Origin: Chloroflexia bacterium
GTDB taxonomy: Bacteria > Chloroflexota > Chloroflexia > QHBQ01
Length of the DNA: 62,420 nucleotides
Direction of reading: 5' to 3'
NCBI GenBank assembly: GCA_038229595.1
Contig: JBBROH010000004.1
Location: forward strand, 1 to 62,420
In this document: positions 2,153-37,524 of the stretch, piece after piece
Numbering within the stretch: the first letter of the stretch is position 1
Layout: each line of letters opens with the position of its first letter
Program-made: the position numbers and the translations under genes
Notes under the pieces: model-generated
Seen by the model: only the letters and a program-made list of their open reading frames with translations
Databases searched by the model: none
Told to the model about the DNA's origin: nothing

Positions 2153-3826
2153 ATGGCCGCCTTCGCCAGCGTCAGCGAACGGGCGGGGGCGACCAGCAAG
2201 CGGCTGGCGAAGGGGGCGATCCTGGCGGACTACCTGGCGGCCCTGGACGACGAAAGCCTGCCCATCGCCTGCCGCTTCCTCAGCGGCAATCCCTTCCCCA
2301 CCGCCGATCAGCGCGTCTTGCAGGTGGGCGGCAGCGCGATCAGCGGGCTGATCGCTACCGTCAGCGGCCTCTCACTCGACGCGGTGAACAACACGCTGGT
2401 GCGGCTGGGCGACTACGGCGAAGTGGCAGAGCAAGCCTTCACTGCCGCCAGCCACCAGCCAGAGGGTGCGCCCCTCAGCCTGACCGAGACGATGGCTGCC
2501 TATGCCGAGATCGCAGCAACCAGCGGCAAGGGTGGGCCGGGGCGCAAAGCGGCGATCCTGGAGGGGTTGCTGCGTCGGGCCGACCCGCTGGTGGCAAAGT
2601 ATCTGCTCAAGATCGTGACCAATGAGCTACGCACTGGCTTGCGCGAGAGCATGGTAGAAGACGCACTGGCGCGGCTGAGCGGGCTGAAGGTGGCCGAGTT
2701 GCAGCGCGTCAATATGCTGCTGGGCGACATTGGCGCAGTTGCTCTGCGGGCGCGGCATGGCACGCTGGGGGAGGCCCAAATGGTGCTTTTCCAGCCCCTC
2801 AAGTCCATGCTAGCCAGCCCGGTGGAGAAGCCGGGTGATGTGCTGAAGGAAGCGGAGCCGACAGTGATCGTCGAGGACAAGTACGACGGCGTGCGGGTGC
2901 AGGCACACAAGGTGGGCGAGCGGGTCGAACTCTACTCGCGCACCCTGGACCTGGTTACGCACCGCTTCCCCGAAGTAGTCACCGCGCTGGCTGCCCTCCC
3001 TGGCGACTTCATCCTGGACGGTGAGGTGGTCGCCTACGCGGGCGGCGTGTTCTTGCCCTTCAGCCTCTTGCAGCAGAGGCTAGGCCGCAAGCAGGTGACA
3101 GACGAGATGTTGGCTAACATCCCGGTGATCTTCGTCGCCTTCGATCTGTTGTACAATGATGGCGCAGTGCTGCTCGATCAGCCGTTGCGCGAACGCTGGG
3201 CGGGGCTGGTGCGCCTGCTCAGCGGAGCGGCGGCGGGTCTGCGCCTGGCCGAACACGACGAGCCGACGCGGGAGCAGCTTGGCCCGCAAGCCGAGGAGCT
3301 TGACCGCTACTTCTTGGCGGCACGGGCGCGGGGCAATGAGGGGCTGATGATCAAGCTACCTTCCTCCCTCTACGCCCCTGGCAAGCGCGGCAAGACCTGG
3401 CTGAAGGTAAAGAAGGCGTTGGCGACCCTGGATGTGGTGGTCACGGCGGTGGAGTGGGGTTATGGGCGGCGGCACACCGTCCTCAGCGACTACACCTTCG
3501 CCGTGCAGGGTGCAGATGGCGCGTTGCTGAACGTGGGCAAAGCCTACTCTGGCCTGACCGATGCAGAGATAGCCGAGCTAACCGAGTGGTTCAAGGCCCA
3601 CACCTTGCAAGAGTTCGCGCATGGCAAGGTGCGGCTGGTAGAGCCGAAGATCGTGATCGAGATTGCCTTCGACCGGGTGCAGCGCAGCCCCCGGCACAAG
3701 AGCGGCTTTGCGCTGCGCTTCCCCCGCATCATCCGCCTACGCGAGGACAAGCCAGTGAGCGAGATCAACACCCTGGAGGACGTGCGGAAACTGGCCGACG
3801 ACGAGCAGGAGAGTGGAGCAAGCTAA
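2153..3826 (+). CDS. ATP-dependent DNA ligase (LigB/archaeal type with N-terminal DNA-binding domain)
   Basis: EDKYDGVRVQ adenylation motif, LDGEV, EGLMIK, WLKVK, ALRFPRI. ATG two bases after the mobA stop; GTG 2135 is an alternative start. Confidence 0.92.
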   Translation: MAAFASVSERAGATSKRLAKGAILADYLAALDDESLPIACRFLSGNPFPTADQRVLQVGGSAISGLIATVSGLSLDAVNNTLVRLGDYGEVAEQAFTAASHQPEGAPLSLTETMAAYAEIAATSGKGGPGRKAAILEGLLRRADPLVAKYLLKIVTNELRTGLRESMVEDALARLSGLKVAELQRVNMLLGDIGAVALRARHGTLGEAQMVLFQPLKSMLASPVEKPGDVLKEAEPTVIVEDKYDGVRVQAHKVGERVELYSRTLDLVTHRFPEVVTALAALPGDFILDGEVVAYAGGVFLPFSLLQQRLGRKQVTDEMLANIPVIFVAFDLLYNDGAVLLDQPLRERWAGLVRLLSGAAAGLRLAEHDEPTREQLGPQAEELDRYFLAARARGNEGLMIKLPSSLYAPGKRGKTWLKVKKALATLDVVVTAVEWGYGRRHTVLSDYTFAVQGADGALLNVGKAYSGLTDAEIAELTEWFKAHTLQEFAHGKVRLVEPKIVIEIAFDRVQRSPRHKSGFALRFPRIIRLREDKPVSEINTLEDVRKLADDEQESGAS

Positions 3827-8773: not shown

Positions 8774-8786
8774 AGGGTCAAGCAGA

Positions 8787-8921
8787 TGTTGCACGTGGAA
8801 CAATGTTTGGCGAACCAACAGTACCTGTGTTCCACGTGCAACATTGCTTGACGAACTAGCGGCCCTATGTTCCACGTGCAACATTGCTTGACGGCAAGAG
8901 GGGAGCGTTCCACGTGGAACA
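8787..8921. other. cluster of four parS (ParB-binding centromere) sites
   Basis: TGTTGCACGTGGAACA 8787-8802, TGTTCCACGTGCAACA 8828-8843 and 8868-8883, CGTTCCACGTGGAACA 8906-8921; all match the parS consensus tGTTnCACGTGnAACa. Confidence 0.88.
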
Positions 8922-32794: not shown

Positions 32795-33057
32795 AAGTGG
32801 TAAGCCTCTCTGTAATTCTTTATTCTAGCCCAATCTAACAACTTGTTCTGGATTTGTCAATCGGGATTCAGCGGAATCGGATCGGGATTCTGGAATTGCA
32901 TAGGCTGAATAGCCACCATCGTCTCCCTTGAGGGGCGTTTATGATCAATATGCCAGAAAGGCTTGCTTTTTCGATAAGTTTGGTGGATGATAGCAATTAA
33001 CGACAGTAGAGGCAAGAACTGATAGCTTAGCAGCGGACAACGAAAGAGTAGTGACAA

Positions 33058-34487
33058 ATGTTTACTAGTTCACAGTTTAGAATGCTGGCGGCAGCGGTTA
33101 TAGCTGCGACGCTGCTGTTTGGCTGCGACAGCGGCACGTCTACACCGCCACAGCAAGTAGTGGCTGCTACGAGCATTCCCGCACCGGACACCACTGCTGC
33201 TGACACCACGCCGCCTCATCCCACCGCCCCGCTTGCAACGGTTTCACAGCAAGCAGCGGCTACCCCGACTGTCGCCGCAGCAACTAACACTACTACTGAC
33301 ACCGCAACGCCTTATCCTTATCCCACCTCCCCGCCTGCAACAGTTCTTAGCCAGGAGAGTATCAACTTAGCCCTGTGTTCGCGGACATCCGCATGGTGCA
33401 GCCGCCTGCAACAGTTCTTAGCCAGGAGAGTATCAACCCTAACTCAGCAGGTACTCCGATTATCTGGGCTGTAGAGTCTAAGGACTCCCTCACGCTCTGG
33501 TTGGGGTACTTTGATGATCAGCCCGCAGCGCAGTTGGTGAATGCACACCCGCTTGTACAATGGCAAGGCAACTTCATAGTTTTGGACATGAAGGTTTCAC
33601 CGAGCAAACATTCGGTTGCCGCCCTGGTATCAGAGGACAGACCAGAGGAGGGTCTGGCCCGTTGGATCGCTGTCGTTGACCTGGACACGAACAGCGTACA
33701 AAGCGCATCTGACTACATGGCACCGGAAACCAGCGGCGCGTACTCCATACTTGGTTGGATCGACGACACCACCATCGCCTTCCAATCTTTTAACAGCGTG
33801 AGATTTGCGTCACTGGCGACCCGTAAGGTAAGTCAGTGTCCATTCCCCAAAACGCAGTGGGGAGTGGCACAGAGTGTACTTTCAGCAGACCGTAGATCAA
33901 TCGTTTCTCTGGTGATAGCCGATCAAGAACACACCGGCTACTGGCGATACAATGTAGATTGCAGCAATCTCCAAAAGGTGGTTGACTCCGAGCATCTTAT
34001 CCCAGGACGTATTTATAGTTGGTCGTCAGATGGCAGAACAGTTAGTTTCGTTCATGAACTCAGACCAGACGCTAGCAAGCAGCAAGTATGGACGCTGGAT
34101 GTGGAGAGCGGTAAGCAGCAGCCGATCACTGAAAGCAACGCCTGGAGTGTTAATCCAGCATGGTCGCCAGACGGCAAGCGGCTAGCATACCTCCAGGCAA
34201 GTACACTGCCAAAGATCAACGATCAGCCAGGTTCTAATCGCCCATCGGCAGCGGACACCAACATCTTTGTTACTGGCGAAGGTCTGAGTACAGCACAACA
34301 ACTGAATACCAACCCGCCACGAGCCAATGCTGGCCTGGCCTGGATCAACAACAGCTACCTGGTCATGGCCTCTGGCAGCAAAAGCAGCCGAACAAGCCTA
34401 GTTGCGCTTTCCCTCGCTGGTCAGGCAACTAACTTGCAGACCGCGCCCCCAGGGGCAGGCATTGCTTGGCTGGCAGTTGTCCGCTAG
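33058..34487 (+). pseudogene. lipoprotein with PD40/TolB-like propeller, frameshifted by a 71-bp insertion/duplication
   Basis: ORF 33058-33474 has a lipobox (LFGC); ORF 33375-34487 has WSSDG/PAWSPDG repeats. Deleting 33367-33437 gives one 1359-nt frame (452 aa). Confidence 0.85.
33331..33437. repeat. perfect 36-bp direct repeat flanking a 35-bp insert (repeat-spacer-repeat geometry)
   Basis: CCGCCTGCAACAGTTCTTAGCCAGGAGAGTATCAAC at 33331-33366 and 33402-33437; insert TTAGCCCTGTGTTCGCGGACATCCGCATGGTGCAG. Confidence 0.95.
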
Positions 34488-34670: not shown

Positions 34671-37301
34671 TCACGCGGCAAACAACTGCTCGTCCTCCTC
34701 GGCCACTGGCAGCGGTAGCAGGCGCGGGCTGGCAGGTGGCGGTGGGGTGGGTAGGGCAGCAGGCAGGCTGTCGCGCTCGGCGGTGAAGTTGCACGCGCTG
34801 CACTTGACTGTCTGCCCATCCTTCCCACGCAGGGTAAGCAATGCGCCACAGGCAGGGCAGGGCGGGCTGGCGAGGGGCCGATCCCAGAGCGAGTAGACGC
34901 AGTCGGGGTAGCGGCCACAACTAAAGAAGACGCGCCCCTTCTTACTTCGCTTCTCGATAATCTCGCCCTGCGCGCACTGGGGGCAGGTTACGCCGGTGCC
35001 GCCGCCAAAAGGCCGCGTATTGCGGCAGTTGGGGAAGCCGGAGCAAGCGATGAACTTGCCGTAGCGACCGAGCTTGATCACTAGCGGGCTGGCGCACTTC
35101 TCGCACGCTTCGCCGGTTGGCACGTCGCGCACTACCACCTTACCGATGGCACTATCGGCTAGCTCCACTGCTTCGTGCAGGGGATTGTAGAAGCTGGCGA
35201 TCACCGGCTGCCAGGCCCGCTCGCCGTTGGAGATGTCGTCAAGCTCCTGCTCCATCCGCGAAGTGAAGCTGGGGTTGACAATGGCGGCGAAGTGCTGCAC
35301 CAGCAGATCGTTGACGATCATGCCCAGTTCGGTCGGCACCAACTTCTTGTCTTCGCGCATCACGTAGCCGCGATCCTGGATCGTCGCCAGGGTGGGAGCG
35401 TAGGTGCTGGGTCGGCCAATGCCCTGCTCCTCCAACATCTTGACCAGACTAGCCTCGGTGTAGCGCGGAGGCGGCTGGGTGAAGTGCTGCAAGGGCAGCA
35501 GCTTGAGCAGATCAAGCGGTTCGCCCACTTCGAGCCTGGGCAGTGGCGGCTGCTTGTCCTCCGCTTGCTCGGCGGTCTCGTCGTCGTTATCCTCGCGGTA
35601 GACGGCCAGGAAGCCAGGGAACTTGATTACGCTGCCGCTGGTGCGGAACAGATAGGGCCGGATCGTCCCCTTGCCCGCTGCGATCTCTACGCTGGTGCTG
35701 TCGAAGACGGCCTGGGTCATCTGGCTGGCAAGGAAGCGTTGCCAGATCAGCTTGTAGAGCTTGTACTGCTCAGCAGTCAGGCTGCTCTTGATTGCGTCGG
35801 GGTCGCGGCCTGTTACGGTAGGGCGGATCGCCTCATGGGCCTCCTGGGCGTTCTTCGACTTCTTGGTGTAGGTGGGTGGGGCGGGGGGCAGGTAGGGTTC
35901 GCCGTAGCGAGCGGCGATCACCTGCCGCGCCTCGGCCTGGGCTGAAGCCGCCACGTTGGTGCTGTCCGTCCGCATATAGGTGATCAGGCCCACGCTGCCC
36001 TCGCCGCCGCCCACGTCAATGCCCTCGTAGAGTTGCTGGGCGATGATCATCGTGCGCCGGGCGGTATAGCCGAGCTTGCGGCCCGCCTCCTGCTGCAAGG
36101 TGCTGGTGGTGAAGGGCGCAACGGGGCTGCGGCGTACCTCCCGCGTCTTGACGCTGCTAACCAGGTAATCTGCATCGTCCAAGCCCTTGATGATGACGTT
36201 GGCATCTTCAGCGTTGCCGATCTCTGCCTTCTTGCCGTTGACCTGGGCCAGGGCAGCATGGAACTGATCGCCGCGCTTTGGCTTCGCCACCTGCTTCTGC
36301 AAGTCAACCTCGATGCTCCAATACTCGACTGGCACGAACGCCTCGATCTCGCGCTCGCGCTCGACGATCAGGCGCACCGCCACCGACTGCACCCGGCCTG
36401 CACTGAGACCACCCTTGACCTTGCGCCAGAGGATTGGGCTGATGCTATAGCCGACCAGCCGATCCAGGATGCGACGCGCTTGCTGGGCGTTGACCAGGTC
36501 CATGTCCAGCGTGCGGGGGTGGGCAATGGCGTGCTGCACGGCCTCTTTGGTCACCTCGTGAAACTCCACCCGGTAGACCGGCTTGCCAGCAGCCTGGGTC
36601 GCCTCCAACAGATGCCAGGCAATCGCCTCGCCCTCGCGGTCTGGGTCGGTTGCCAGGTAAATCGCCTTCGCGCGCGCCACATCCGCCTTCAGTTCCTTGA
36701 CCGTCGCGCTCTTTTCGCGGGGGATCAGGTACTGGGGGGTAAAGTCGTGTTCGGTGTCCACCCCCATCTTGCTCTTGGGCAGGTCACGCACGTGGCCGTA
36801 GCTGGCACGCACGGCATAGCCGCGACCGAGGTACTTGCTGATTGTCTTCGCCTTCGTCGGCGACTCGACGATCACCAGATTAACCCCCTGGGGGATGCTG
36901 CTGACTGAGGCACGCACACTGCTACTACCCTCGCCGGTTGCCTTCTTCGTCGTGCTGCGGCTGGTGGTACTGCGCGTAGTGGTGCCGGTTGCCTTCTTCG
37001 TCGTGCTGCGCGTAGTGGTGCCGGTTGCCTTCTTTGTCGTGCTGCGCGTAGTGGTGCCAGTCGCCTTCTTTGTCGTTGCCTTCTTCGTTGGGGCAGCGGT
37101 AGCCGTCGTGCTGCTGGCACGAGTGGCGCGCTTGGCAGTGACTGGGGTGGCAGCGTCAGTGCTGACGACGGCAGCGGCACGCTTGCGCGGAGTAGTGACA
37201 GGCGCAGTAGCGTCGACAGCGGGGGTGGCAGCACGCTTGCGGGTAGTAGGGGAGGTTGTAGGGGCTTCAGCGTCGCCTGCAATAATCTTTTTCGTGGGCA
37301 T
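34671..37301 (-). CDS. topA: DNA topoisomerase I with a basic N-terminal extension and C-terminal zinc fingers
   Basis: LVIVESPTKAKTI, LATDPDREGE, SAGRVQS, LITYMRTD, QEAHEAIRPT, GIGRPSTYA, C4 zinc ribbons. Confidence 0.97.
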   Translation of the reverse strand: MPTKKIIAGDAEAPTTSPTTRKRAATPAVDATAPVTTPRKRAAAVVSTDAATPVTAKRATRASSTTATAAPTKKATTKKATGTTTRSTTKKATGTTTRSTTKKATGTTTRSTTSRSTTKKATGEGSSSVRASVSSIPQGVNLVIVESPTKAKTISKYLGRGYAVRASYGHVRDLPKSKMGVDTEHDFTPQYLIPREKSATVKELKADVARAKAIYLATDPDREGEAIAWHLLEATQAAGKPVYRVEFHEVTKEAVQHAIAHPRTLDMDLVNAQQARRILDRLVGYSISPILWRKVKGGLSAGRVQSVAVRLIVEREREIEAFVPVEYWSIEVDLQKQVAKPKRGDQFHAALAQVNGKKAEIGNAEDANVIIKGLDDADYLVSSVKTREVRRSPVAPFTTSTLQQEAGRKLGYTARRTMIIAQQLYEGIDVGGGEGSVGLITYMRTDSTNVAASAQAEARQVIAARYGEPYLPPAPPTYTKKSKNAQEAHEAIRPTVTGRDPDAIKSSLTAEQYKLYKLIWQRFLASQMTQAVFDSTSVEIAAGKGTIRPYLFRTSGSVIKFPGFLAVYREDNDDETAEQAEDKQPPLPRLEVGEPLDLLKLLPLQHFTQPPPRYTEASLVKMLEEQGIGRPSTYAPTLATIQDRGYVMREDKKLVPTELGMIVNDLLVQHFAAIVNPSFTSRMEQELDDISNGERAWQPVIASFYNPLHEAVELADSAIGKVVVRDVPTGEACEKCASPLVIKLGRYGKFIACSGFPNCRNTRPFGGGTGVTCPQCAQGEIIEKRSKKGRVFFSCGRYPDCVYSLWDRPLASPPCPACGALLTLRGKDGQTVKCSACNFTAERDSLPAALPTPPPPASPRLLPLPVAEEDEQLFAA
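36970..37086 (-). repeat. 3 x 36-bp coding repeat (KKATGTTTRSTT) in the TopA N-terminal extension
   Basis: units at 36970, 37006 and 37042 on the + strand. Confidence 0.9.
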
Positions 37302-37524
37302 GGTAATCTCTTCCTGGGTTTGTAGCATCGAGCTTGCGCCCACAATTGCGCGGGCGTAATTTCACTATAACTACTTTGACGGCCAATTGTCAAGCGGGCG
37401 CAAAAGATTCACACAACGGGCTAATGCTTTGCGGCGGGGCAGCGGGCGACTAAAGCAATGGGCGGGGCGGAGGTATGACTCCCGGCCCCACCCATCTACT
37501 TGCACCTTGCACCAGGGCGGTTGG

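What the first reader, a model, noticed from the sequence alone, without database searches (positions are those of the whole stretch)
33331..33437. Apparent off-target CRISPR spacer integration (neo-CRISPR) inside a protein-coding gene
Seen: a perfect 36-bp duplication of coding sequence (PPATVLSQESIN appears in both ORF halves) flanks a unique 35-bp insert, and removing the 71 bp restores a single 452-aa lipoprotein. The duplicated unit reads GTTGATAC...GCAGGCGG on the minus strand (ending ATCAAC on plus), resembling the GTT.../...AAC termini of many CRISPR repeats. Known: Cas1-Cas2 inserts a spacer-length fragment and duplicates a repeat-length target, and ectopic integration has been shown experimentally. 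IS target duplications are much shorter, and slippage does not add unrelated sequence. Inference: a natural snapshot of de novo array birth acting as a gene-inactivating mutation. No cas gene is in this window.
Basis: partly seen in the sequence, partly recalled or inferred. Interest (0 to 1): 0.85.

Follow-up and report, generated by a model that had tools for sequence, protein, structure and literature searches.

The report
Stray CRISPR spacer insertion splitting a gene
A CRISPR memory-writing enzyme appears to have pasted a 35-base foreign DNA snippet into an ordinary gene instead of the CRISPR array, breaking that gene, and the same kind of mis-insertion recurs about a dozen more times in this wild Chloroflexota genome and in its sister species.

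Summary
Window 33331-33366 and 33402-33437 are a perfect 36-bp direct repeat around a unique 35-bp insert. The 71 bp split a 452-aa PD40 beta-propeller gene. A same-genus genome (G001) has the intact 450-aa gene, one copy of the target and no insert.

The interpretation, off-target Cas1-Cas2 spacer integration, is well supported:
- The MAG encodes a complete type I-D system and a type I-C adaptation module.
- Its arrays have 37-nt repeats and 33-40-nt spacers (periods 70-77).
- A whole-genome scan over periods 40-130 found isolated two-copy repeats at non-multiple-of-3 periods only at 71, 73, 74 and 76.
- I accept 13 unique events, hold 2 doubtful, and add one inside an IS end that then transposed to 4 sites.
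- Where testable, 4 of 4 events are empty in G001. G001 has 3-4 events of its own, and 2 of 2 testable ones are empty here.
- Targets start with GTKG on one strand, like the repeats' GTTGCA. The other cut lies 36-38 bp away, as a ruler would set it.

Not shown: read support (no run covers the site), the source of any insert, which Cas1-Cas2 acted, or growth into an array. One similar unit sits in a Cas1-less relative, inside an IS.

Verdict: a natural member of a kind known mainly from experiments, at unexpected frequency.

The parts
33331..33366 (-). Target-site duplication, copy 1 (36 bp). On the minus strand it reads GTTGATAC...GCAGGCGG. This is native coding sequence (PPATVLSQESIN).
   Evidence: 100% identical to copy 2. 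The single orthologous copy in G001 is shown.
33367..33401 (.). 35-bp spacer-like insert, unique in the assembly and of unknown origin.
   Evidence: no other copy. Searches found no source in the public collections. The insert is absent from the G001 ortholog.
33402..33437 (-). Target-site duplication, copy 2 (36 bp).
33058..33474 (+). 5' fragment of the disrupted gene. It holds the signal-peptide-like N-terminus (...LLFGC) and a Thr/Pro/Ala-rich linker: 103 native codons, then 35 frameshifted codons read across insert and copy 2, then a stop.
   Evidence: No Pfam hit. The reading as a lipoprotein signal is from recalled motif knowledge and was not tested with a predictor.
33375..34487 (+). 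3' fragment of the disrupted gene. It is a 370-aa open frame whose first possible start (GTG 33375) lies inside the insert. It carries a PD40 (WD40-like beta-propeller) repeat and lacks the signal peptide.
   Evidence: PF07676, E 4.3e-07. The intact 450-aa ortholog in G001 has the same PD40 hit.

Best explanation
The 107-bp structure is the scar of a full-site, off-target spacer integration by one of this organism's own Cas(4)-Cas1-Cas2 adaptation complexes.

Inferred mechanism, from established Cas1-Cas2 chemistry:
1. The integrase, loaded with a 35-nt prespacer, mistook a GTTG-containing site inside a PD40 beta-propeller gene for a leader-repeat junction.
2. It made the first strand transfer at the G of GTTG on the minus strand.
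3. It made the second transfer on the other strand, one ruler length away. That distance is 36 bp here and 37 bp in the canonical repeat.
4. Gap-fill repair then duplicated the 36 bp on both sides of the spacer.

The 71-bp gain shifts the reading frame. It separates the signal peptide and linker from the propeller, so the gene is very probably inactivated.

The event is one of at least 14 in this genome, about 3 per Mb, and similar events occur in the sister species. Leaky target choice therefore looks like a standing property of this lineage's 37-nt-repeat CRISPR systems. The unit is a non-functional proto-array, not a working CRISPR locus.

Shown: the geometry, the match to the host's arrays, the cas genes, the empty ancestral sites and the shared GTKG end.
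Inferred: the order of the strand transfers, which Cas1-Cas2 acted (I-D or I-C), and the foreign origin of the insert.
For: (1) Geometry matches the host's own CRISPRs. The arrays on C94, C52 and C10 have 37-nt repeats with periods 70-77. The 31 I-D spacers measure 34-40 nt, mean 36.9. The 13 accepted events have periods 71-76, and their mean period minus 37 is 36.9.

(2) Period control. Over all periods 40-130, isolated non-tandem repeats (at least 32 of 34 matching, at most 46 bp) at periods not divisible by 3 occur only at 71 (1), 73 (6), 74 (5) and 76 (4). Every other such period gave 0 after the filter.

(3) Adaptation genes are present and full length. C94 carries Cas6, Csc1, Csc2, Cas10d, Cas3', Cas4, Cas1d, Cas2 and then the array. 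C194 carries Cas7c, Cas4, Cas1c and Cas2.

(4) Empty sites. I queried 11 G000 loci against G001 to G004. Four had orthologous DNA across the site, and all 4 lack both insert and duplication: C4, C65 (gap of 76), C165 (gap of 76) and C85.

(5) An independent assembly shows the same thing. In 1,242,960 bases of G001 there are 3 good units and 1 doubtful unit at periods 70-74. Two have orthologous DNA in G000, and both are single-copy and empty there.

(6) Shared target motif. GT lies exactly at one 5' boundary in 8 of 15 loci, against a background of 0.105 (binomial P = 4.7e-05). In the 16-site profile, position 3 is G or T in 14 of 16, position 4 is G in 11 of 16, and position -1 is never C. 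The host repeats begin GTTGCA or GTTTCA.

(7) Targets are modestly more repeat-like than random GT-starting 37-mers: 10.94 against 9.19 matches for the I-D repeat, P = 0.004.

(8) The inserts behave like spacers. None of the 15 has a match above noise in the assembly, and the same holds for the 45 genuine spacers.

(9) The IS-borne event has its own internal control. The 37-nt segment is single in the IS copies on C228 and C258. It is duplicated around a 36-nt insert in the copies on C41, C53, C185 and C265, which have four different flanks.

(10) Literature. Cas1-Cas2 off-target integration is documented in E. coli in vivo (passages in PMC6607411 and PMC7054753). It is also documented in vitro for P. 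furiosus, with a preference for G at the attacked base and spacing equal to the repeat length (passages in PMC6698737).
Against: (1) There is no read-level evidence. The only runs found are Logan contig sets. Their pieces cover 33646-34067 and parts further right, and nothing covers 32800-33645. Allele frequency and both junctions remain unverified by reads.

(2) No protospacer was found for any insert: for the window insert, and for four others. Foreign origin is therefore inferred. Two genuine I-D spacers also found nothing, so this null result has little weight.

(3) The negative control was not clean. G009 is in the same order, is 93% complete, and has no Cas1 hit with PF01867. In 800 kb it still holds one 37+35+37 unit that starts GTTCGAAG. 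The unit lies between two halves of an IS5-like transposase. It may have arrived with the IS or be a relic, but it also allows a Cas1-independent origin.

(4) The duplication here is 36 bp, not 37.

(5) In G002 the one perfect 37+37 unit has no GT at either end. In G000, 2 of 15 candidates also lack it.

(6) For 7 of the 11 G000 loci queried, no orthologous DNA spans the site. Four loci were not queried. The empty state is thus shown for a minority.

(7) The C85 comparison is complicated by an unrelated 30-bp coding-repeat difference in G001.

(8) Events are over-represented on contigs under 10 kb (8 of 13 against 21.4% of bases, P = 0.002) and within 300 bp of contig ends (3 of 13 against 4.5%, P = 0.018). 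This could reflect assembly trouble around them.
Confidence: 0.85

Rival explanations
1. Assembly or chimera artefact: the repeat-insert-repeat structure was created by the metagenome assembler or by chimeric reads and does not exist in cells.
For: No read covers the site in the runs available. The genome is a fragmented MAG of 318 contigs. Events are enriched on small contigs and near contig ends. ORF1, which spans both junctions, was not found in other assemblies, although the window's own record may be left out of that search.
Against: An artefact would not know the host's CRISPR geometry. Hits at periods not divisible by 3 occur only at 71-76. Duplications are 36-38 bp and inserts 32-39 bp, each of different sequence. 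One end carries GT far above chance. The same structures occur in an independent assembly at different sites, with reciprocal empty sites. Four IS copies in different flanks carry the same unit.
Confidence: 0.04
2. A real insertion made by a Cas1-independent process, such as an unknown integrase or transposon footprint, or repair synthesis with filler DNA, that happens to give duplications of about 37 bp with fillers of about 36 bp.
For: One such unit lies in G009, a genome with no Cas1 hit. No protospacer was found for any insert. Which Cas1-Cas2 acted is not shown.
Against: I know of no transposon or repair pathway with a 36-38 bp target duplication and a 33-39 bp cargo of unique sequence (recalled knowledge: IS duplications are about 2-14 bp and casposon duplications about 14-15 bp). 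The insert has no inverted terminal repeats. The lengths equal this genome's repeat and spacer lengths, and the junction motif equals the repeat's 5' end. The G009 unit lies in an IS, so it may have been imported.
Confidence: 0.07
3. A genuine, functional mini-CRISPR array (two repeats and one spacer) that is transcribed and processed, and not an accident.
For: Mini-arrays with one spacer do exist in this genome with true I-D repeats (C22).
Against: The 'repeat' here is coding sequence of a conserved gene and is single-copy in the congener. It shares only GTTG with the host repeats. The 13 units have 13 unrelated repeats. The unit breaks the reading frame of the gene.
Confidence: 0.02
4. Replication slippage or tandem duplication of native sequence, followed by divergence of the middle part.
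For: Coding tandem repeats are common in this genome at periods divisible by 3.
Against: The period is 71, which is not divisible by 3. The two copies are 100% identical while the 35 bp between them has no similarity to them or to anything else in the genome. The congener has the target followed directly by the downstream flank, so the 35 bp is not native.
Confidence: 0.02

Closest known systems
Non-canonical ('neo-CRISPR') spacer integration by E. coli type I-E Cas1-Cas2 (Nivala, Shipman and Church 2018, Nat Microbiol). The paper itself was not held. I know it only through passages in citing papers.
   Same: A spacer-length fragment is inserted outside the array, with duplication of a repeat-length target. 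The product is not a functional spacer. It has been proposed as a seed for new arrays.
   Different: That case used over-produced Cas1-Cas2 in the laboratory. According to bioRxiv 10.1101/148544 (passage), evidence in natural genomes was 'circumstantial' and limited to two other species. Here the events are natural and are fixed in the assembled consensus. They number about 14 in one genome and recur in a sister species. The host carries Cas4-containing I-D and I-C modules with a 37-bp ruler, in Chloroflexota. Any role for IHF-like sites was not examined.
Off-target integration sites of Pyrococcus furiosus Cas1-Cas2 in vitro (PMC6698737; passages read)
   Same: Off-target sites keep the repeat-length spacing between the two strand transfers. 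They prefer G at the attacked nucleotide and resemble the repeat mainly at its borders.
   Different: That study used plasmid DNA in vitro with a 30-bp spacing. Here the sites are chromosomal, in vivo and heritable, with 36-38 bp spacing. Only one border (GTKG) is clearly conserved. The far border shows only a weak preference for a purine then C at positions 36-37.
Type I-D adaptation module of Synechocystis 6803 tested in E. coli (Kieper, Almendros and Brouns 2019, PMC6607411; abstract and passages read)
   Same: It is the same subtype as the complete system on C94. That work reports that Cas1-2 can still integrate at the repeat without any leader, at drastically reduced rates. Recognition therefore rests partly on the repeat itself.
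   Different: That work did not report genomic off-target sites. Here the targets are not repeats at all, and whether the I-D or the I-C module is responsible is open.
Ectopic spacer acquisition inside arrays (Streptococcus thermophilus; passage in PMC8047081)
   Same: Integration occurs away from the leader-proximal repeat.
   Different: Ectopic events still use a genuine CRISPR repeat inside an array. Here the target is unrelated single-copy genomic DNA.
IS and transposon target-site duplications, and casposon integration (recalled knowledge, not from a call)
   Same: Staggered strand transfer followed by gap repair gives a direct duplication flanking the inserted DNA. Casposases are Cas1 homologues.
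   Different: The duplication here is 36-38 bp, against about 2-15 bp. The inserted DNA is 32-39 bp of unique sequence with no terminal inverted repeats and no transposase.

Membership tests
Cas1-Cas2 off-target (non-canonical) spacer integration | The duplicated target has the length of the host's CRISPR repeat | tested here: met
   36 bp here against 37-nt repeats in all three arrays. The whole set measures 36-38 bp from the GT end.
Cas1-Cas2 off-target (non-canonical) spacer integration | The insert has the length of the host's spacers | tested here: met
   35 nt here. Host spacers are 33-40 nt. The mean over events equals the I-D mean of 36.9.
Cas1-Cas2 off-target (non-canonical) spacer integration | The host encodes Cas1 and Cas2 | tested here: met
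   Cas1d and Cas2 on C94, and Cas1c and Cas2 on C194, both with Cas4.
Cas1-Cas2 off-target (non-canonical) spacer integration | The ancestral site is single-copy and lacks the insert | tested here: met
   G001 C122 has an intact 450-aa ORF, one copy of the target and no insert.
Cas1-Cas2 off-target (non-canonical) spacer integration | The target resembles the repeat or the leader-repeat junction | tested here: met
   GTTG at one boundary here. GT is strictly at the boundary in 8 of 15 loci against 0.105 expected (P = 4.7e-05). Similarity is modest over the remaining positions.
Cas1-Cas2 off-target (non-canonical) spacer integration | The insert is captured foreign DNA (a protospacer, with a PAM in the source) | tested here: inconclusive
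   No source was found or 83-86. Genuine spacers also found none. The insert is not derived from the assembled host genome.
Cas1-Cas2 off-target (non-canonical) spacer integration | The structure exists in the DNA of cells (reads span both junctions) | not testable with these tools
   Only contig-level runs were available, and none covers 33331-33437.
Cas1-Cas2 off-target (non-canonical) spacer integration | This host's Cas1-Cas2 catalyses integration at such sites | not testable with these tools
   This needs biochemistry or genetics.
Functional CRISPR array | The repeat sequence is shared with other arrays of the genome or family and carries the Cas6 recognition structure | tested here: not met
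   The repeat is PD40-gene coding sequence and occurs only at this site. It matches the host repeats only at GTTG.
Functional CRISPR array | Several spacers, meaning repeated acquisition at the locus | tested here: not met
   There is one spacer only. No non-CRISPR unit in G000 has three copies.
IS or transposon insertion with target-site duplication | A short duplication (a few to about 15 bp), terminal inverted repeats and transposase-related cargo | tested here: not met
   The duplication is 36 bp. The cargo is 35 bp with no inverted repeat and no other copy in the genome.
Tandem duplication or slippage | All repeated material is native to the locus | tested here: not met
   The 35 bp is absent from the orthologous locus and from the rest of the genome.

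The most novel reading that the evidence does not exclude
In this uncultured Chloroflexota genus, CRISPR adaptation acts as a recurrent natural insertional mutagen. It leaves about 3 heritable spacer insertions per Mb outside arrays. The rule appears to be a GTKG junction mimic plus a 37-bp ruler. The insertions break genes, turn over between sister species, and have landed in an IS end that then carried the repeat-spacer-repeat unit to at least 4 new sites. Mobile elements could thereby spread proto-arrays within genomes and, as the IS-embedded unit in the Cas1-less relative G009 hints, between genomes. If so, this would be a natural catalogue of the first step of CRISPR array birth and a direct measure of the genomic cost of adaptation.
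Probability: 0.5. Interest if true: 0.85.

Novelty: new member of a known kind. Interest (0 to 1): 0.75.

Why it matters
According to the papers I could read, off-target integration by Cas1-Cas2 has been shown with over-produced enzyme in E. coli and in vitro. Those papers describe natural cases only as circumstantial.

This genome provides natural events with matched empty sites in a sister species, in numbers large enough to read an in vivo target rule. Three questions become testable with wild data:
- How specific is adaptation without laboratory over-expression?
- What does adaptation cost the host in broken genes?
- Do proto-arrays arise often enough to seed new CRISPR loci?

There is also a practical point. 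Genome annotation pipelines may misread such units as tiny CRISPR arrays, or as frameshifted pseudogenes of unknown cause.

My searches for 'neo-CRISPR' and for off-target spacer integration in genomes or metagenomes found no report of a wild genome with many such events. The library lacks most subscription journals and supplements were closed, so this is not proof that none exists.

Tried and rejected
**Read support.** The look-up of sequencing runs gave three contig-level runs from one study. When laid, X1 covers 33646-33840 and 33848-34067 with 0 differences, plus a 15-difference piece from 34364 and one short unrelated piece. X2 covers 33772-34030. X3 covers nothing. Nothing covers 32800-33645, so there is no statement either way about the junctions.

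**Source of the insert.** The window's 35-mer had 0 exact matches in metagenome contigs, viral contigs and genome contigs. It had 0 matches at up to 3 mismatches in 40 genomes of the order other than its own site. In the phage collection only noise appeared (E of 1 or more, 22-23 nt). The inserts of C245, C192 and C165 gave 0 in viral contigs, and the C65 insert gave 0 in metagenome contigs. As a control, two genuine I-D spacers also gave 0 in viral contigs. No insert or spacer has a meaningful match in the 1.24-Mb G001 sample (four 16-nt hits at E about 0.006 among 60 queries).

**Empty-site tests that could not be read.** For C53, C192, C245, C106, C222, C210 and C113, relatives G001 to G004 (G001 only for C113) have no orthologous DNA across the site.

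**Candidates dropped or held doubtful.**
- C113:9301 and C142:2121 have 2 mismatches and no GT end, so I hold them doubtful.
- C235, C111 and C7 are coding repeats at periods 75 and 78 and were dropped.
- The four period-73 hits at contig ends are one IS-borne event, not four.
- In G001, L116:3561 is doubtful and L097:5317 is a degenerate true repeat.

**Which system did it.** Similarity of the targets to the I-D, C52 and C10 repeats is modest for all of them and does not discriminate.

**Negative control.** G009 was meant as a Cas1-less control, but it gave one unit in 800 kb. At about 3 per Mb, 2.4 would be expected, so one unit does not separate the hypotheses.

**Other.** The Nivala et al. 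paper is not held. Paper supplements were closed and were not requested. Rfam found nothing in the window.
Full report
**1. The observation**

Window 33331-33366 and 33402-33437 are identical 36-bp direct repeats. They flank a 35-bp insert at 33367-33401. The bases just outside the two copies differ on both sides, so the duplication is exactly 36 bp. No inverted repeat was found around the site. Neither the insert nor the repeat occurs anywhere else in the 4.25-Mb, 318-contig assembly, of which the window is contig C4. The best partial matches of the insert are 14-18 nt, which is noise.

The structure splits one gene:
- ORF1 (33058-33474) has 103 native codons followed by 35 frameshifted codons.
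- ORF2 (33375-34487, 370 aa) starts inside the insert and carries a PD40 beta-propeller repeat.
- Removing the 71 bp in a script gives 452 aa without a stop.

**2. The ancestral state**

The same-genus genome G001 matches the gene in two pieces that overlap on its own contig. The alignment shows one copy of the target, no insert, and an intact 450-aa ORF with the same PD40 hit. The G001 target differs from the window's at 3 of 36 positions, while the window's two copies are identical. The duplication is therefore younger than the split between the two species.

**3. The host's CRISPR-Cas content**

Cas1 and Cas2 are present twice.
- Contig C94 carries a complete type I-D locus: Cas6, Csc1/Cas5d, Csc2/Cas7d, Csc3/Cas10d, Cas3', Cas4, Cas1d and Cas2. 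It is followed by an array of 32 repeats running to the contig end.
- Contig C194 carries Cas7c, Cas4, Cas1c and Cas2 at a contig edge. Downstream lies what looks like a TnpB-type fragment (my reading of the sequence printed, not tested), and no array.
- Two further arrays lie on C52 and C10.

All three arrays have 37-nt repeats that begin GTTGCA or GTTTCA. Their spacers are 33-40 nt, which gives periods of 70-77. The window's 36+35 = 71 falls at the lower edge of this range. All four genomes of the family other than G000 also have a Cas1d above the model's cut-off. G001 has an I-D array whose repeat differs at one base, and an array with the C52 repeat. The cas contigs therefore belong to this lineage.

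**4. The site is one of a class**

I scanned the whole assembly for direct repeats (at least 32 of 34 matching) at every period from 40 to 130. I kept only short ones (at most 46 bp) that are not part of a shorter-period tandem repeat, and I left out the three arrays.

Hits at periods divisible by 3 are scattered and are coding repeats. At periods not divisible by 3 there are hits only at 71 (1), 73 (6), 74 (5) and 76 (4), and none at any other such period. Before the filter there are single stray hits at 40, 49, 55, 56, 70, 77 and 128.

Inspecting every hit at periods 68-79 gives three groups:
- 13 units that I accept: C4:33331, C53:19938, C192:4757, C245:2828, C106:2595, C196:3232, C210:2982, C196:54, C290:2829, C85:10841, C222:121, C165:8299 and C65:1096.
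- 2 doubtful units: C113:9301 and C142:2121.
- A four-copy unit that is treated in section 8.

Nine of the 13 are perfect duplications and four have one mismatch. Each has a different repeat sequence and a different insert. Measured from the GT end, the duplications are 36-38 bp. Part of the 38s is expected from chance extension by one base. The mean period minus 37 is 36.9, the same as the mean I-D spacer length. Each duplicated unit occurs exactly twice in the assembly (12 of the 13 checked; the segment I gave for C65 spanned its mismatch and so matched once), so no empty-allele contigs are present.

**5. Empty sites for other events**

I queried 11 G000 loci against G001 to G004. Four have orthologous DNA across the site, and all four lack the insert and the duplication:
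- C4.
- C65, with a gap of exactly 76.
- C165, with a gap of exactly 76 and a 37-bp overlap of the match pieces.
- C85. Here G001 also differs by a 30-bp coding-repeat unit, so this case is less clean.

For the other seven loci the relatives match only flanking segments. Those events lie in variable DNA. Four loci were not queried.

**6. An independent assembly shows the same class**

I fetched 1,242,960 bases of G001 and ran the same scan. Besides its arrays it holds:
- L059:4702 (36+34, one mismatch; the reverse strand starts GTTGCAAAGT).
- L113:1095 (36+35, perfect; starts GTAGATACC).
- L127:7587 (37/38+35/36; the reverse strand starts GTGTGAGTC).
- One doubtful unit, L116:3561.

Two of these have orthologous DNA in G000. 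Both are single-copy and empty there, with piece overlaps of 37 and 38 bp. Insertions are thus private to each species in both directions. Density is about 3 per Mb in both genomes: 13-14 in 4.25 Mb, and 3-4 in 1.24 Mb.

**7. The target rule**

GT sits exactly at a 5' boundary of the maximal repeat, on one strand or the other, in 8 of 15 loci. In random 37-mers of this genome the frequency is 0.105, giving binomial P = 4.7e-05. If the maximal repeat may be 1-2 nt longer than the true duplication by chance, or may contain one mismatch, 13 of 15 start with GT.

In the profile of 16 oriented sites from G000 and G001:
- Position -1 is never C (G 8, A 4, T 4).
- Position 3 is G or T in 14 of 16.
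- Position 4 is G in 11 of 16.
- Positions 36-37 show only a weak preference for a purine then C.
- No other position stands out.

The host repeats start GTTGCA. Outside the first two positions, the targets match the repeats slightly more often than random GT-starting 37-mers do. The figures are 10.94 against 9.19 for I-D (P = 0.004), 11.41 against 8.72 for the C52 repeat, and 9.82 against 8.81 for C10 (P = 0.057). This supports repeat mimicry but does not identify the module.

The pattern is one recognised junction plus a fixed distance. It agrees with the published behaviour of Cas1-Cas2 on off-target DNA: a preference for G at the attacked base and spacing equal to the repeat length (passages of PMC6698737). 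It also agrees with the report that the I-D integrase can act on a repeat without its leader at low rate (passage of PMC6607411).

**8. An event inside an insertion sequence**

The four period-73 hits at contig ends (C41, C53, C185, C265) are the left end of one IS. Its transposase ORF starts a few bases further on. Two more copies, on C228 and C258, carry the 37-nt segment once. That segment starts GTTGGGG and lies six bases inside the IS end. The four others carry it twice, with the same 36-nt insert between the copies, and each has a different outside flank.

The simplest reading is one off-target integration into an IS end, followed by transposition of the marked IS. The two fixed differences between the copies match differences among the single-copy IS variants, which fits later exchange between IS copies (inference). 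The IS was not found in the G001 sample.

**9. Evidence against, and gaps**

- **Reads.** There is no read-level evidence. The runs found are contig sets that begin at 33646.
- **Insert origin.** No insert could be traced to a source. Two genuine spacers also found nothing, so the collections do not hold this organism's mobile elements. Foreign origin rests on absence from an assembly that is 87% complete.
- **Contig bias.** Events are over-represented on contigs under 10 kb (8 of 13 against 21.4% of bases, P = 0.002) and within 300 bp of contig ends (3 of 13 against 4.5%, P = 0.018). Possible causes are a preference for accessory DNA, assembly breaks at a 37-bp repeat, or mixed alleles. If the cause is assembly breaks, the count is a lower bound.
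- **G009 control.** G009 has no Cas1 hit with the general Pfam model at 93% completeness. In 800 kb it still has one 37+35+37 unit, with one mismatch, starting GTTCGAAG and ending GTTTGAAC. The unit lies between the two halves of an IS5-like transposase (the family name is my reading of the translation, not a search result). It may have come in with the IS or be a relic of a lost system. It keeps a Cas1-independent origin from being excluded. One unit in 800 kb is not statistically different from 3 per Mb.
- **G002.** This genome has Cas1d. In 400 kb it has one perfect 37+37 unit without GT at either end and one imperfect unit. It also has background hits at periods 40, 44, 85 and 96 that look like palindromic repeat elements.

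**10. What it is and is not**

The unit is not a working CRISPR array. Its repeat is coding sequence, it shares four bases with the real repeats, and no such unit has acquired a second spacer. 'Array birth' is therefore shown only as a first step. The gene is most likely inactivated, because the signal-peptide part and the propeller part are now in separate frames.

The organism is an uncultured Chloroflexota bacterium. Its topoisomerase I is 93% identical to that of a 'Chloroflexota bacterium' MAG and 62-69% identical to those of further Chloroflexota and Chloroflexia MAGs.

**11. Comparison with the literature**

Papers citing Nivala et al. 2018 describe rare off-target integrations in E. 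coli over-producing Cas1-Cas2. One preprint states that evidence in nature was circumstantial and limited to two other species. The primary paper was not available to me.

Five full-text searches found no report of many natural events in one wild genome. The library is incomplete and supplements were closed.

I therefore rate the mechanism as known. This case is a new, natural, multi-locus member of that kind. The points of interest are its frequency, the reciprocal empty sites, the readable target rule and the IS-borne copy.

Noticed in passing
G000:C41:~24006, C53:~20943, C185:~8021, C265:~110 (reverse); single-copy forms at C228:~5396 and C258:~4364: Some copies of one IS end carry a 37-nt segment (starting GTTGGGG) once. 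Others carry it twice around a 36-nt insert, and those four have different outside flanks. This looks like an off-target spacer integration that was then spread by transposition.
   Followed up: partly
G009 locus L239:2570-2688: A genome with no Cas1 hit carries one 37+35+37 unit (GTTCGAAG...GTTTGAAC, one mismatch). It lies between the two halves of an IS5-like transposase gene (ORFs 1590-2543 and 2624-3265). Its origin is unexplained: imported with the IS, a relic, or another mechanism.
   Followed up: partly
G000:C22:3656-3758: A mini I-D array away from the cas locus. It has one repeat with a mismatch, a 38-nt spacer, and a repeat truncated after 28 nt.
   Followed up: no
G000:C283:~2224-2260 (minus strand): A solitary full-length I-D repeat with no spacer, preceded by AT-rich, leader-like DNA. 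It may be an empty or collapsed array.
   Followed up: no
G000:C194:1-277: Directly downstream of the type I-C cas2 the contig ends in what reads like the C-terminal zinc-finger part of a TnpB/IS605-OrfB-type protein.
   Followed up: no
G000:C3:32958-33113: A Cas1 fragment (52 model positions in a 178-aa open frame) far from any array. It is probably a remnant.
   Followed up: no
G000:C196 (7545 bp): 54-166 and 3229-3340: Two independent off-target units lie on one 7.5-kb contig. More generally, 8 of 13 events lie on contigs under 10 kb. Possible causes are a hotspot in accessory DNA or an assembly effect.
   Followed up: partly
window 36970-37107: Three 36-bp coding repeats (TTRSTTKKATG units) lie in the N-terminal extension of topoisomerase I (ORF 34671-37343, minus strand).
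   Followed up: no
window 8786-8893: A 40-bp tandem repeat of 2.7 copies at 82% identity. Its nature is unknown.
   Followed up: no
G002 locus L256:16748-16858: A perfect 37+37+37 unit in a family-level relative that has Cas1d, but without GT at either boundary. The target rule may differ between genera.
   Followed up: no
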